A stretch of DNA of 64,000 nt, from NCBI GenBank assembly GCA_038087875.1, contig CM075985.1, positions 14,570,001 through 14,634,000 of the forward strand, in the 5' to 3' direction. Position numbers: made by a program. Below are positions 30,001-36,000 of this stretch, piece by piece. This DNA is from Malacoraja senta. Lineage: Eukaryota. Numbering within the stretch: the first letter of the stretch is position 1; every line of letters begins with the position of its first letter.

Positions 30001-33000
30001 AGAGCTATACTATACTCCAGCCTGCCCAAATCCCTTTCCTTCCATTCTATACAACCACACCTCCACAATGTTGGCACATGGTATGCCATAGAGCATGCCA
30101 TCATGCCAATCCTACTCTAACTTCAGAAACTCATTTTAGTTCATTAGCTAATTCTGCCCATAGTTGGATCCAATATCATCTTGGGTGCATAGTAAGTGTA
30201 AAAGTCAGGACATTTCTTGTACTAGGATTAAATGAGGACTCTCAAGATTTGACAGATGAACTGTGAAGTGACCAGGTTGCAAAATGTTGGTGGCATGGGG
30301 GGGGGTCCTAAATTAAAAAGTGAGCAGAATGAACTCAGACACTATAAAAAGTCAAGGAAATGCATCCTCTGTATATAGTGCTTTTTTTTCTGATCTAGGA
30401 ATAGAATATCAACTTACCAACATTCAGAAAGGTCAAATCACTAATACATGCACATTTGGACTTTTCCAAGGAAACTCTAAATGTTTTTCGCCAACCTGCA
30501 GAAAATTCAGATAAAGAATTAAACATAGCCATTTCTGAAGTGTACCACTGCAAATTCCATTCAGATTATTTAGGTATTAAATTGCTCAGACCATAAAAAT
30601 ATCGAAGGAAGACAAAAATGCTGGAGAAACTTAGCGGGTGAGGCAGCATCTATGGAGCGAAGGAATAGGCGACGTTTCGTGTCGAGACCCTTCTTCAGAC
30701 TGATGTCGGGGCGGGGGGGGGGGGGGGAAAGAAGGGAAGAGGCGGAGACAGTAGGCTGTGGGAGAGCTGGGGAGGGAAGGAAGGAGAGCAAGGACTACCT
30801 GAAATTGGAGAACTCAATGTTCATACCACTGGGGTGTAAACTACCCAAGAAATATGAGGTGCTGTTCCTCCAATTTGCAGTGGGACTCACTGTCCTGGGC
30901 CATGGAGGAGGCCCAGGACAGAAAGGTCGGATTCAGAATGGGAGGGGGAGTTGAAGTGCTGAGCCACTGGGAGATCAGGTTGGTTATTGCAAACTGAGCG
31001 GAGTTGTTGGGCGAAGCGATCACCAAGCCTGCGCTTGGTCTCACCGATGTAGAGCAGTTGACACCTGGAACAGTGGATGCAATAGATGAGGTTGGAGGAG
31101 GTGCAAGTGAACCTCTGCCTCACCTGGAAAGACTGCTTGGGTCCTTGGATGGAGTCGAGGGGGAGGCAAAGCGACAAGTGTGGCGTTTCCTGCGGTTGCA
31201 AGGCAAAGTAAGGAAAAGGGAGGGGGTGGTTTGGGTGGGAAGGGACGAATTGACCAGGGATCCAGGGACCAGGAATTAAGTTCTGTGATTCTGTGTTTAA
31301 ATCCCGGAATGCCGCAATACAGTTTTACAGGTGGAATATACTTTAAACCAAGTACACCAAGTGACTCTGCTTTTACAGGGCAAACAGGAAATAGTTGCTC
31401 CATCAAATTTAGTCTCATACCCTTCTGAAATTTAAGAAAAAGGTCGTGAAATAATCAAAATGGAGAGAGTTCCAACTGCTTAAAAAAAAGTTAATTCTGC
31501 TGAAATAATTTAAAACTAGATTTACCATAATGCAGAAGAATGACTGTATAAACAAATTCTTGATCATTTTGCATAGGATGACTGTAGCACACCGACAAGG
31601 CACCTGCAACAGCAATTGATTATAGGAGTATGCTTTTTGTCAAAGGTAATCTGCTGCAAGACAAATCACTTTATAAAAAGGAGAGAATTCATCATACACA
31701 GCAAAGGGTATAGCCATCCCCACTTACATATGCTGGATATTAATGTAAAAGATATCCCATCATTTGCAAACATTCCAAGACTTGCCCCCAGTCCCAACAA
31801 CAATAAATTGAAAAGGAATTGCAAATAATTATATATACTGCCCATCAGCTAGGTGCAAGTTCCTTTAAAGCTCATTTTTCCACCTATTTGTGAGTTAATT
31901 TTAAATTGTTTTCCCACTCTGTTCAGATCGGTTTTCTTTATTTCATTGCAAATGACAAATACTAACATTTAAGCACGAGTCACAAAGTGCACTCTTTCCA
32001 TTTTATGATAGACAGAGAGCAAATAAATAACCCTAACTTTTCATCCACTAATTGATACTGGGATACAGAACCATAAGGTATTGAATTTACTCATTTTGAT
32101 TTTGAGATCACATACAGACACTGTCCGCCTTCTAACTGAGGGCAACCTTTCGAATAATTTTGAATCCGTTAGGTACACAGTGCATAAGTGATCCACATAC
32201 ACTTCAGCTTACACGTCCAAACTAAATTACATTTTATACCAACCATTATATGATGAGAAAATAAGAGTTCGAGACATTTATTGTCACGTGCACCAATTGG
32301 TACAGTGAGATTTGAATTACCATACAGCCATACGAATAAAAAGAACACAATGCACGATAGAATTTAACATGAACATCCTCACACAGCGGAATCATCGTTT
32401 CCCACTGTGAGGGAAGGCAATAAATACTATGTGAACTCAGCAGAACATATTAACATTTCAGTTTAATGACCCTGCATTTGTGCCTTACAACTTACAAGTC
32501 AACATAGTTGAATCCACAAAATGTAAATAAATGCTTATCTGCAGACAGGAAGTTCTGACCCTATAACTCTGCTGCTTTATTCTCAGATGCTGCCGAGTAC
32601 ATCCAGCATCTTCTATTTTTTATCTCAGATTTCCTGCAATGTCAGCTATCTTGCTTTTGTTTCCACATTATTATTAGAGGGAAGAACGAGGAGGCCATCA
32701 AAATTATCTTTTTATCCGAGCTGCCGGAGGAGGTGGTTGAGGCAGGTACTAACGCAATGCAGGGCACGAAATTAGCGGTTGCCCGGGTGCCCATGACCAC
32801 TCAAAGCGCCGCCGGGCAACCTAAACACCGAGTCATTTTGCCCGGCTTGGCAACCAGATACTGGTTTGTACCGAAGATAGACACAAAAAACTGGAGTAAC
32901 TCCGCGGGTCAGGCAGCATCTCTGGAGAAGAGGAACGTGACGTTTCGTGTCGGCGNNNNNNNNNNNNNNNNNNNNNNNNNNNNNNNNNNNNNNNNNNNNN

Positions 33001-36000
33001 NNNNNNNNNNNNNNNNNNNNNNNNNNNNNNNNNNNNNNNNNNNNNNNNNNNNNNNNNNNNNNNNNNNNNNNNNNNNNNNNNNNNNNNNNNNNNNNNNNNN
33101 NNNNNNNNNNNNNNNNNNNNNNNNNNNNNNNNNNNNNNNNNNNNNNNNNNNNNNNCAAAGACACTGAATGGTCCTGGTATCCACAGCATCAAAGAGCTTT
33201 TGATATCCTCAAGTTGCAGCTGGCCAGCGGACCCACCCTCGCCTACTTCGCTTTGGAGTTACCAGTAACCAGTGATGCGTCCCAGTACGGACTTGGCGCT
33301 ACTTGCCTACAGACCAGTACCAATGGCGACTGCAAGCCTGTTTTATGTGCCTCCCGCACACTGAACAACGTTACGCCCAAATTGAGAAAGAATTGCTCGC
33401 AGTGGTTTTCACCTGCACGAAATTCAAAGACTATATTTTTGGGAAGTCTGTGACTATAGAAACAGACCACCAGTCGCTGGTCACTATCTTGAACAAACCC
33501 ATTCACGCCGCTCCGGCTCGCTTATAACGGATGATGATGCAGCTGCAGCGTTTCGATGTTAACATTGTCTACAAAAAACAAAGGACATGCACATAGCTGA
33601 CACGCTATCAAGGGCCCCACGCAAAACCAGCGAACAACAGCCCTCTGAACAGGACCGGTTCTCAGTAATGAAGTATTTCCACTGATTGCCTAAGCAGCCT
33701 GGCAGAGCACACGACTGCTGATGAGACAATTGCTGTCTGCAGTCATCCGGCGTGGCTGGCCGGATAAACAACACAGCACCCCGCTCGCGATCCACCCATA
33801 CTTCCTGGATCGTGACGAACTGGTGATACAGGGCAGGATTATAGTCAAGGGTCACAAAGCAGTTGTCCCAGTCGTTCTCCGGGACAAGTACCACAATGCC
33901 GTCCACAGGGGCCACCCCGGCGTGGAGACAACCTTACAACGGGCACAGAGCATGTTTTACTGGCCTGGCAAGACCAAGTACATACGTGACAAAAATGAAG
34001 TCTGCGCCATCTGCAAAAGCCTGATGCCACACCAGCAGGAGCAGCCCTTAGTGTCGCACCCGGTTCCTCCTCTACCGTGGTCCACAGTAGTCACTGACAT
34101 ATTCGAATGGCTTGGGAAACACTATCTGGTTCTCGTCGACTCTTATTCGGGCTGGTTTGACATTGATCTACTCCAAACCATCACATCTGAAGCAGTTATC
34201 CAGAAGTTGCAACGCCATTTCTCTGTGCACGGTTCCCCTACATGCCTTCTATCCGACAACGGCAGTCAGTTCACCAGCCAGCTTTTCAGAAACTTCGCTC
34301 AACGATGGGACTTTCAACATATCACCAGCAGCCCTGAGTTTCCGCAGTCCAACGGACTCGCCGAACGGGCCATCGAAGCGCAAAACAACTAATGGAGCGT
34401 TCTTATCTTGCAAAATCTGACGTCTACCTGGACCTGCACAATTTAAGGAACATTGCCAGGGATCCCATACTGGGTTCTCCAGCCCAACGACTGATGTCTC
34501 GTCAAACCCACGCTGACCTGCCTGTACCCCAACAGCTATTGCAGCCACAGGTCCGTTCTTCTCCCGTGGTCCAGAAACAACTACAATTGAAGCGTGATGC
34601 ACAAAAACGTTTTTTTGACAAGTTCAGTAAGCCACTCCAGTGGACAGGTTGTTCGTCTCCAGACCAACAAGGGCTTTGGCCGTCTGGGTCACATCCACAG
34701 CCCTGCTAAAGAACCGCGCTCTTACCTGGTAAGCGCGGACGGGGCCATTTACAGACGCAACCGTCAACATCTCCTTCCTGTGAAGGAACCACGTCCTGCG
34801 ACTCCATATCCAGAGGCCTCGCGTTTTGTATACCCTCTCACTACCAGGCCAACTGCTCCACAGTCAGAGACTGTGTCCCCCGCGGCCTCTCCATGGCGTT
34901 CAGCGCCCAGCTCGCCTGTTTCGCCACCTCCACCAGGCGGGTCTCCGGTGCCGTCCCCGGTCACATCCCCGTTCCCCTCCCCAGTCACTTCACTGGTGAA
35001 AGGAGGAGACGCGGATTCGTACTGCACACGCGCCGGACGTGTTAGCCGTGATTTTGTGCAACCATGTATACTCTCCCATATGCGTTATGAGCTCCTGTAT
35101 TGTTTAGCCACCATGTACCCATGTATCTATGCTTTATTTTGTTTCCACAAGGAAAGATGTAGATTGGTTACTTCCTACTAACCAATTGTAGTGCTTGTTA
35201 GTAGTAGCTCCGTCAACTATGCGGTTTATATTACCAGGAGTTTGCTTACGTAATGTAGTCTGAATAGCTGCTAGTTACTGTAACACCTTGCAGACCAATG
35301 CTGTAAGTGTACTTTAATAAATACATATTGTACCTTGACGTGTGCACGACTCGACTCATTACAGTATATAAAATCATGAAAGATACAGATGGATAGAGTA
35401 GATAGCCAGAGTCATAATAGGAGCATATAAAACCAGAAGGCATGGTTTTAAGCTGAGGAAGGAGGTTTAAAGGCAATCTGAGGGACAAATCTGTTGCACA
35501 GAGGCATCAGGGCTGGTACTTGATTGAGAGGGCATAGAGGGAAATGGAATTAATACAAGCAAGTGGGAATAGTGTAGATGGGCATGACGGTCACCATAGA
35601 CAGTCACTACATTACTCTCAGAAGTGCAGACATGTAGTATTCTACGTTCACAAATTCAATATGTTAACTTTTGTTGTTTTTAAAAGCAAAAACGTGATCG
35701 AACTATTGAAGAATTGAAAACAGAAAAACTGAATTTACATGACTCCACGAAGAAGCATAAACATATGCTGGTTGGGTAAGAATGCTGATTATATATTTAT
35801 ATATATATATATATATTTTTCCTATTTATGTTTTATTTTCTTAGAAACTGTCTTTCAGGTGTATTTGTTTTACCACAAAAAACTTCAATAAATATTGTGA
35901 TGGGCAGCAATTAAAATACTGCACAGGTAATCCAGCGGTCCCGATAACCAGGAGTCCATCGTTCAAAATCTAATATGCCAACTGTGCAATTTAGATTCAG

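What the first reader, a model, noticed from the sequence alone, without database searches (positions are those of the whole stretch)
31526..35775. GSAP and CCDC146 are both 5'-truncated at the gap and in reversed order
Seen: GSAP exons (minus) stop at 31603 and CCDC146 exons (plus) start at 35687. Both open with internal acceptors, and I found no start exon or promoter between them. I also found no GSAP 5' exons to the right and no CCDC146 5' exons to the left. A fixed 200-N gap bounded by repeats lies between. Known: in human, CCDC146 and GSAP are convergent neighbours. Inference: (a) two contigs are swapped, (b) an unpurged haplotype overlap or a true segmental duplication repeats the tail-to-tail region, or (c) least likely but most interesting, the genes are truly interleaved, each 3' half inside an intron of the other.
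[Added by the scan's program, not by the reader: the finding's places include an assembly gap (unread letters, written N; its length is only estimated) at 32956 to 33155. Whether the letters on both sides are continuous or in frame is not known: test that first.]
Basis: partly seen in the sequence, partly recalled or inferred. Interest (0 to 1): 0.65.

Follow-up and report, generated by a model that had tools for sequence, protein, structure and literature searches.

The report
Scaffold seam between two half-genes
Two neighbouring skate genes look cut in half and placed back to back only where two sequence pieces were joined across an unread gap, so this is most likely an assembly artefact and not a rearranged genome.

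Summary
The window is rajid skate DNA. It holds the intact 3' part of GSAP (about aa 287-854 of 854) on the minus strand, in 19 exons from 31603 down to the stop at 2282-2284. It also holds the intact 3' part of CCDC146 (aa 480-954 of 954) on the plus strand, in 8 exons from 35687 to the stop at 63561-63563. Both first exons open with internal acceptors. No trace of either 5' part occurs anywhere in the window. The two truncated 5' ends face the window's only assembly gap (32956-33155, 200 N).

The left contig ends in a dispersed short repeat. The right contig starts in the middle of a degraded LTR-retroelement pol gene. Nothing links the two flanks. The odd arrangement therefore rests only on a scaffold join.

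The best reading, at about 0.8, is an assembly artefact. It could be uncollapsed overlapping contig ends (a false tandem duplication of the tail-to-tail region, with the window as its seam) or misplaced or misoriented contigs. The window cannot separate these. Real alternatives are not excluded but are unlikely: a recent tandem duplication, a head-to-head arrangement with the 5' halves hidden in the gap, or true interleaving. Interest is low.

The parts
2282..31603 (-). GSAP 3' part, 19 exons, about aa 287-854 of 854, stop at 2282-2284
   Evidence: tblastn with L. erinacea GSAP P0021. The phases run consistently to the stop, with no in-frame stop, 19 of 19 AG acceptors and 17 GT plus 1 GC of 18 donors. 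Identity is 524 of 557 aligned residues.
31526..31603 (-). GSAP exon 1 of those present (aa ~287-312). It is an internal exon and starts with 2 bases of a split codon.
30418..30495 (-). GSAP exon 2 present
28837..28929 (-). GSAP exon 3 present
26784..27001 (-). GSAP exon 4 present
24936..25002 (-). GSAP exon 5 present
21846..21928 (-). GSAP exon 6 present
21680..21736 (-). GSAP exon 7 present
19694..19828 (-). GSAP exon 8 present
18130..18185 (-). GSAP exon 9 present
17833..17864 (-). GSAP exon 10 present, a 32-nt micro-exon
   Evidence: Missed by tblastn. Found by scanning the intron with a 9-residue stretch of P0021. The phase fits.
17352..17413 (-). GSAP exon 11 present
14578..14673 (-). 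GSAP exon 12 present
13274..13344 (-). GSAP exon 13 present
11170..11270 (-). GSAP exon 14 present
   Evidence: Pfam GSAP-16 profile positions 28-55, 20.5 bits.
8964..9083 (-). GSAP exon 15 present
   Evidence: Pfam GSAP-16 profile positions 57-94, 43.1 bits against a cut-off of 27.
6784..6845 (-). GSAP exon 16 present
6238..6342 (-). GSAP exon 17 present
4979..5078 (-). GSAP exon 18 present, with a GC donor
2282..2382 (-). GSAP terminal coding exon including the stop codon
31604..32955 (-). Start of the GSAP intron upstream of the first exon present. It is cut off by the gap and holds no exon.
32869..32955 (.). Dispersed short repeat at the end of the left contig
   Evidence: 14 other partial copies in the window
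32956..33155 (.). Assembly gap, 200 N. True size unknown; not filled or looked up.
33156..35100 (+). Degraded LTR-retroelement pol fragment (RNase H, integrase zinc-binding and core domains). It is cut at its 5' side by the gap and lies inside the CCDC146 intron.
   Evidence: Pfam hits spread over at least 3 reading frames. Unique in the window, with no LTR partner. CpG o/e 0.78.
35687..63563 (+). CCDC146 3' part, 8 exons, aa 480-954 of 954, stop at 63561-63563
   Evidence: tblastn with A. radiata CCDC146 P0003. 8 of 8 AG acceptors, 7 of 7 GT donors, consistent phases. Identity is 459 of 472 aligned residues.
35687..35775 (+). CCDC146 exon 1 of those present (aa 480-509). It has an internal acceptor and phase 0.
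37939..38103 (+). CCDC146 exon 2 present
41420..41644 (+). CCDC146 exon 3 present
43577..43805 (+). CCDC146 exon 4 present
   Evidence: Pfam CFAP58_CC 24.7 bits against a cut-off of 27.
51196..51324 (+). CCDC146 exon 5 present
59902..60039 (+). CCDC146 exon 6 present
62417..62665 (+). CCDC146 exon 7 present
63360..63563 (+). CCDC146 terminal coding exon including the stop codon

Best explanation
The back-to-back, 5'-truncated arrangement is an artefact of a scaffold join. Two contigs each break off in a repeat inside an intron. One break is in the GSAP intron before the exon for aa ~287. The other is in the CCDC146 intron before the exon for aa 480. A scaffolder placed the contigs side by side with a placeholder of 200 N. 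In the animal, each gene is most likely whole, and the two genes end tail to tail as in other vertebrates.

Two forms of the artefact fit equally well with what the window shows:
- Form 1, which I lean to (about 0.4). The two contigs are in the right order but their ends overlap, as two uncollapsed haplotype versions of the region 'CCDC146 3' half - intergenic - GSAP 3' half'. The scaffold then reads CCDC146 (whole) - GSAP 3' half | gap | CCDC146 3' half - GSAP (whole). The window is the seam of this false tandem duplication. This form needs only the one gap that is seen.
- Form 2 (about 0.35-0.4). The two contigs are short and were swapped, or each was turned round, by long-range (Hi-C type) scaffolding. 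This form needs further contig breaks just outside both ends of the window.

Shown here: the gene content, the intactness of both halves, the absence of the 5' parts, the gap at the junction, and the unrelated repeats on its two sides. Inferred: that the join is wrong or redundant.
For: 1. The junction between the two half-genes (31604-35686, 4083 bp) contains the only gap of the 64-kb window. A gap placed at random would fall there about 6% of the time. Under an artefact it must be there.
2. No sequence continuity crosses the gap. The left side ends in a dispersed short repeat with 14 other partial copies. The right side starts at profile position 1 of the RNase H domain of a retroelement pol. 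Neither plus-strand ORF at the end of the left flank (0 of 2) matches any Pfam family, so no reverse transcriptase precedes it there. The right flank has no second copy and no LTR partner in the window. A literal 200-bp hole in one continuous element is therefore ruled out.
3. Both halves look like parts of working genes. 27 of 27 exons have AG acceptors. 24 of 25 donors are GT and 1 is GC. Phases are consistent to both stop codons, with no in-frame stop. Identity is 94.1% to L. erinacea GSAP and 97.2% to A. radiata CCDC146.
4. If the two contigs are swapped, or each is inverted, the two stop codons (63561-63563 and 2282-2284) face each other. That is the neighbour arrangement recalled for human.
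5. Passages read in Ko et al. [quoted passage not shown] They describe a case (NPNT / NPNT-like) where the seam leaves one copy without 5' exons and the other without 3' exons.
6. Passages read in the SALSA2 paper (PMC6719893) and the HiC-Hiker paper (PMC7672694) say order and orientation errors rise as contigs get shorter, and that misjoins between small contigs are hard to detect.
7. A passage in PMC12134992 shows '200 Ns' used as a fixed gap marker in a YaHS-scaffolded assembly.
8. Related skates and rays have full-length annotated GSAP (852-856 aa) and CCDC146 (953-954 aa). Among the 18 CCDC146 hits there is no half-length skate copy.
Against: Nothing in the window shows directly that the join is wrong. 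No read depth, long reads, Hi-C data or flanking sequence could be examined.

No second copy of either half is visible. The sequence past the two stop codons does not overlap. Form 1 therefore has no positive sequence evidence here.

Form 2 needs two more contig breaks that the window does not show: there is no N within 33 kb to the left or 31 kb to the right of the gap.

The locus does carry real recent duplications: a 97% identical exon-3 fragment array at 45014-47941. Real duplication in this region is therefore not far-fetched.

The convergent human orientation that makes the arrangement look 'wrong' is recalled, not shown by a call.
Confidence: 0.8

Rival explanations
1. A real, recent tandem segmental duplication of the block 'CCDC146 3' half - intergenic - GSAP 3' half', with breakpoints in the two introns. 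The window would be the true junction between copy 1 and copy 2. The two halves seen would be spare, non-functional fragments lying beside whole genes.
For: It produces exactly the order and orientation seen (geometry). The locus has other young duplications: a 1180-bp tandem array at 97% identity that carries part of exon 3.
Against: The junction, which is the one unique point of such a duplication, would have to coincide with the only gap. Spare fragments would be free to decay, yet 27 of 27 exons are intact. This is weak evidence if the event is very recent. No half-length copy appears among the related species' proteins (18 hits).
Confidence: 0.08
2. The scaffold order is right and the genes are truly head to head in this skate. 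The 5' halves of both genes, and a shared promoter region, lie in unassembled or unplaced sequence that the nominal 200 N hides. That sequence would be tens of kb.
For: The gap size is only a placeholder (finding note; for the convention). Both 5' ends point into the gap. The 5' parts are nowhere in the window.
Against: It needs two rearrangements relative to the tail-to-tail arrangement recalled for human. By the intron sizes seen here (medians 1.6 and 2.4 kb), it also needs some 50 kb or more of ordinary genic DNA to have been lost from the scaffold. No data support either requirement.
Confidence: 0.06
3. True interleaving, the reader's option (c). The order in the genome is CCDC146 5' half, GSAP 3' half, CCDC146 3' half, GSAP 5' half. 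Each gene's 3' half lies inside a giant intron of the other gene on the opposite strand, and both genes still work.
For: It is compatible with intact exons and splice sites in both halves and with the internal acceptors at 31603 and 35687. Nested genes on the opposite strand are known at this locus in human (FGL2 within CCDC146). That nesting is my recall; one search shows only that an intronic CCDC146 variant affects FGL2 expression.
Against: It needs a three-break transposition. It needs introns of more than 32 kb (GSAP) and more than 35 kb (CCDC146), where the largest seen are 3.0 and 8.6 kb. The rearrangement junction would again have to coincide with the only gap.
Confidence: 0.04

Closest known systems
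False duplication at a contig seam (Ko et al. 2022, Genome Biol 23:205, PMC9516828; passages read), e.g. NPNT / NPNT-like in zebra finch
   Same: Partial gene copies are separated by an assembly gap. One copy lacks 5' exons because the seam cuts through an intron. The exons are otherwise intact.
   Different: Here two different, convergent genes are cut, so the seam shows two 5'-truncated genes back to back and not one gene twice. The second copies, half read depth and discordant reads that define a false duplication could not be examined.
Order and orientation errors of short contigs in Hi-C scaffolds (SALSA2, PMC6719893; HiC-Hiker, PMC7672694; passages read)
   Same: Contigs are joined with a fixed-size gap. 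Swapping or flipping the two contigs restores a tail-to-tail gene pair.
   Different: The contigs here are at least 33 and 31 kb long, and their outer ends are not in the window. Whether they are short is unknown, and no contact data were available.
The CCDC146-GSAP neighbourhood of other vertebrates
   Same: The same two genes lie side by side. Human figure legend lists FGL2, CCDC146, GSAP (PMC8215820). A chicken chr1 12-13 Mb block lists both (PMC10976558).
   Different: In human the genes are convergent (my recall, not shown by a call). In the window the 3' ends point outward and the 5' parts are missing.
Nested or interleaved genes on opposite strands (e.g. FGL2 inside a CCDC146 intron in human; recalled)
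   Same: This would be the model if the scaffold were right: exons of one gene inside an intron of another on the other strand.
   Different: Mutual interleaving of two multi-exon halves is not the same as one small gene nested in an intron. Nothing here shows it.

Membership tests
GSAP (gamma-secretase-activating protein) gene | Collinear similarity to named GSAP orthologues | tested here: met
   19 exons are collinear with aa 287-854 of L. erinacea GSAP. Identity is 524 of 557 residues. Identity to 3 other rays is 77-91%.
GSAP (gamma-secretase-activating protein) gene | Pfam GSAP-16 C-terminal domain (PF14959) | tested here: met
   The single exon 8965-9081 scores 43.1 bits (cut-off 27), profile positions 57-94. 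Exon 11171-11269 scores 20.5 bits, profile positions 28-55. 4 other GSAP exons tested singly gave no hit.
GSAP (gamma-secretase-activating protein) gene | Complete gene with start exon and N-terminal ~285 residues | tested here: not met
   No credible match to aa 1-284 of 4 references anywhere in the window.
CCDC146 gene | Collinear similarity to named CCDC146 orthologues | tested here: met
   8 exons are collinear with aa 480-954 of A. radiata CCDC146. Identity is 459 of 472 residues.
CCDC146 gene | Pfam CFAP58_CC coiled coil (PF21771), the domain precomputed for 13 of the 18 hits | tested here: inconclusive
   The single exon 43578-43805 scores 24.7 bits, below the cut-off of 27. 3 other exons gave no hit to it. 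Exons were not joined, so the whole-protein score was not obtained.
CCDC146 gene | Complete gene with start exon and N-terminal 479 residues | tested here: not met
   No credible match to aa 1-478 of 5 references.
False duplication (criteria in Ko et al. 2022, passages) | Assembly gap between the duplicated pieces | tested here: met
   The only gap in the window lies at the seam. This criterion alone is not sufficient.
False duplication (criteria in Ko et al. 2022, passages) | A second copy of the same region next to it | not testable with these tools
   The copies would lie outside the window. There is no overlap between 63564-64000 and 1-2281.
False duplication (criteria in Ko et al. 2022, passages) | About half the normal read depth, and discordant read pairs | not testable with these tools
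   No reads were available.
Hi-C order or orientation error | Short contigs bounded by gaps on both sides, and a contact map that prefers another order | not testable with these tools
   The outer contig ends are not in the window. No contact data were available.
LTR retrotransposon (Ty3/Gypsy-like pol) right of the gap | RNase H and integrase domains in pol order | tested here: met
   RT_RNaseH_2 E 5e-13, RT_RNaseH E 2e-13, Integrase_H2C2 E 2.5e-10, rve E 2.4e-10, in that order on the plus strand.
LTR retrotransposon (Ty3/Gypsy-like pol) right of the gap | Reverse transcriptase domain and a pair of LTRs | tested here: not met
   The element is cut by the gap before RNase H. The left-flank ORFs have no family. 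There is no repeat of 33156-35686 in the window.

The most novel reading that the evidence does not exclude
The scaffold is right, and in this skate the two genes are truly interleaved. Each gene's 3' half lies on the opposite strand inside a giant (>32 kb) intron of the other, and both genes remain functional. This would be a mutual nesting of two multi-exon genes created by a transposition within a conserved tail-to-tail pair.
Probability: 0.04. Interest if true: 0.6.

Novelty: not a real feature. Interest (0 to 1): 0.12.

Why it matters
If it is an artefact, it matters only for users of this assembly. Gene predictors will produce truncated, duplicated or chimeric GSAP and CCDC146 models here. 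Synteny or structural-variant analyses would then report a false rearrangement or false gene gain.

If the arrangement were real, it would be an unusual case of two conserved neighbours rearranged without loss of either gene.

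Tried and rejected
I switched to single ORFs and single exons.
2. A Pfam scan of 10 arbitrary long minus-strand ORFs gave nothing useful, because the GSAP exons are short. Homologue search with one exon plus tblastn solved this.
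3. I looked for a visible overlap between the sequence after the CCDC146 stop and the sequence beyond the GSAP stop, which would have proved a duplicated intergenic region. None was found, so this is uninformative.
4. I looked for the missing 5' exons with 9 reference proteins at loose thresholds. None was found.
5. I tested whether the gap sits inside one continuous retroelement. This is rejected for a small gap: there is no reverse transcriptase and no LTR partner on the left.
6. A simple inversion between the two intron breakpoints is rejected on geometry. It would leave the two 3' halves contiguous and convergent, not divergent across a junction.
8. An Rfam scan of the window gave 0 matches.
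10. No eukaryotic genome collection was on hand, so synteny in other skates and sharks stayed unchecked.
11. The exons were never joined into a spliced coding sequence or protein. No search, fold or domain scan of a joined model was made.
12. No structure or complex prediction was run, since neither bears on the question.
13. Supplementary files of the papers were not opened. The figures of Ko et al. that show seam structures are in part supplementary.

Full report
**What is in the window**

The window has a single N run, 32956-33155, 200 bases long. I searched one open frame at a time.
- The 89-aa frame 62402-62668(+) found CCDC146 of 18 fishes. The best hit was Amblyraja radiata, at 96% identity over 954 aa.
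- The 42-aa frame 31494-31619(-) found GSAP of 4 rays and skates, 852-856 aa long, each carrying Pfam GSAP-16.

With the named reference proteins I ran tblastn against the window.
- GSAP aa 285-854 match collinearly on the minus strand from 31607 down to 2285.
- CCDC146 aa 479-954 match collinearly on the plus strand from 35684 to 63560.

The source is therefore a rajid skate. It is close to, but not identical with, the references:
- The GSAP half is 524 of 557 residues (94.1%) identical to Leucoraja erinacea.
- The GSAP half is 90.7% identical to Rhinoraja longicauda.
- The CCDC146 half is 459 of 472 residues (97.2%) identical to A. radiata.

It is not human sequence.

**Exon structure**

I refined each junction by splice consensus and length arithmetic, treating every exon on its own. 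The exons were never joined into a spliced sequence, and no search or fold of a joined model was made. That step is left out on instruction.

GSAP has 19 exons in the window:
- 31603-31526, 30495-30418, 28929-28837, 27001-26784, 25002-24936, 21928-21846, 21736-21680
- 19828-19694, 18185-18130, 17864-17833, 17413-17352, 14673-14578, 13344-13274
- 11270-11170, 9083-8964, 6845-6784, 6342-6238, 5078-4979, 2382-2282 (including the stop)

The exon 17864-17833 is a 32-nt micro-exon that tblastn missed.

CCDC146 has 8 exons: 35687-35775, 37939-38103, 41420-41644, 43577-43805, 51196-51324, 59902-60039, 62417-62665 and 63360-63563 (including the stop).

All 27 acceptors are AG. Of the 25 donors, 24 are GT and 1 is GC. 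The phases run consistently to both stop codons, and no exon has an in-frame stop.

Scanned singly against Pfam, exon 8965-9081 reaches 43.1 bits on GSAP-16 (cut-off 27), and exon 11171-11269 reaches 20.5 bits on the adjoining profile positions. CCDC146 exon 43578-43805 reaches 24.7 bits on CFAP58_CC (cut-off 27).

- The GSAP exon at 31603 follows cag| and begins with two bases of a split codon, so it is an internal exon.
- The CCDC146 exon at 35687 follows a pyrimidine tract and aaaag|.

The N-terminal parts find nothing credible on either strand of the whole window. I tested GSAP aa 1-284 of 4 references and CCDC146 aa 1-478 of 5 references. The best E values were 0.14 and 0.071, and these hits hold stops or are coiled-coil likeness to the CCDC146 exons already present. 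I viewed the 8 best HSPs per reference.

Between the two first exons, the only CpG-rich stretches lie inside a retroelement.

**The gap, tested first**

No coding sequence approaches the gap. Both flanks are intronic.
- The left flank (31604-32955) ends in an ~85-bp dispersed repeat with 14 other partial copies in the window.
- The right flank starts 7 residues before profile position 1 of an RNase H domain. It continues with integrase domains in at least three frames. This is a degraded LTR-retroelement pol on the plus strand.
- The plus-strand frames at the end of the left flank match no family, so no reverse transcriptase precedes the RNase H there.
- The right flank has no other copy, and hence no LTR partner, in the window.

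The two sides are not two parts of one element separated by 200 bases. Continuity across the gap has no support in the sequence. Frame is not an issue, because nothing coding crosses it. I did not fill the N run or look it up.

**Geometry**

Both stop codons lie in the window and point outward: GSAP at 2282-2284 towards base 1, and CCDC146 at 63561-63563 towards base 64000. Both truncated 5' ends point into the gap.

Swapping the two contigs, or turning each round in place, brings the two 3' ends face to face. That is the neighbour arrangement I recall for human. The orientation is recalled. The neighbour status is supported by passages read in two papers:
- PMC8215820 lists FGL2, CCDC146 and GSAP in one regional plot.
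- PMC10976558 lists both genes in one chicken 1-Mb block.

The same picture also arises if two correctly ordered contigs overlap by the whole tail-to-tail region. The scaffold would then read: whole CCDC146, GSAP 3' half, gap, CCDC146 3' half, whole GSAP.

A single inversion cannot give this picture.

**Weighing**

For an artefact:
- The 4083-bp junction interval holds the only gap of 64 kb (about a 6% chance if unrelated).
- The flanks are unrelated repeats.
- Both halves are intact.
- Passages in Ko et al. [quoted passage not shown] They describe a seam that leaves one copy without 5' exons.
- Passages in the SALSA2 and HiC-Hiker papers state that order and orientation errors grow as contigs shorten, and that misjoins between small contigs escape detection.
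- A YaHS-scaffolded assembly reports all its gaps as 200 Ns.

Against, or neutral:
- I could see no reads, no contact data and no flanks.
- The 437 bases after the CCDC146 stop and the 2281 bases beyond the GSAP stop share nothing. None of the 21 HSPs between the contigs touches them, and all 21 are dispersed repeats. No second copy is therefore visible.
- Form 2 needs breaks that the window does not show.
- The locus does hold a real young duplication.

I put about 0.8 on an artefact: about 0.4 on uncollapsed overlap and about 0.35-0.4 on misplacement. The remainder is 0.08 on a real recent tandem duplication, 0.06 on a true head-to-head pair with the 5' halves hidden behind the nominal gap, and 0.04 on true interleaving. 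Interleaving would need introns of more than 32 kb, where the largest seen are 3.0 and 8.6 kb.

**What stayed unchecked**

- Synteny in other skates and sharks, because no eukaryotic genome collection was on hand.
- Read depth, long reads and Hi-C data.
- Supplementary files of the papers.

**Verdict**

The biological reading is most likely not real. Interest is low.

Noticed in passing
window 45014-47941 (source copy 41509-42080): A tandem array of about 2.5 units of ~1180 bp, 97% alike, lies inside CCDC146 intron 4. Each unit holds a 575-bp copy (97%) of the last 136 nt of exon 3, with its donor site, plus 436 nt of intron 3. The pseudo-exon copies are at 45584-45752 and 46764-46932. It is either a young real duplication or a local assembly expansion.
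   Followed up: partly
window 9901-10650 and 60651-61150: Two unique CpG-island-like stretches lie inside introns. One has GC 0.58 and CpG o/e 0.82, in the GSAP intron between the exons at 11170 and 9083. The other has GC 0.57 and o/e 0.90, in the CCDC146 intron between 60039 and 62417. The window-wide o/e is 0.34. Neither is repeated in the window. They could be internal promoters or young GC-rich insertions.
   Followed up: partly
window 17833-17864 (-): A 32-nt GSAP micro-exon (ILSKVDLSSP) that tblastn missed. It has a canonical acceptor and donor, and it is needed to keep the reading frame.
   Followed up: yes
window 4979 (-): GSAP exon 18 uses a GC donor (AAG|gcaagt) and not GT.
   Followed up: no
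window 22650-23672 (-): A Tc1/mariner-type transposase remnant lies in a GSAP intron (HTH_Tnp_Tc3_2, E 3.4e-21). LINE reverse-transcriptase fragments lie at 39665-40201(-) and 49985-50329(+) in CCDC146 introns.
   Followed up: partly
window 33156-35100 (+): The retroelement at the right edge of the gap has a high CpG o/e (0.78), which looks young. Its pol is nevertheless split over at least three frames. A recent, possibly polymorphic insertion could be the reason the contig broke here.
   Followed up: no
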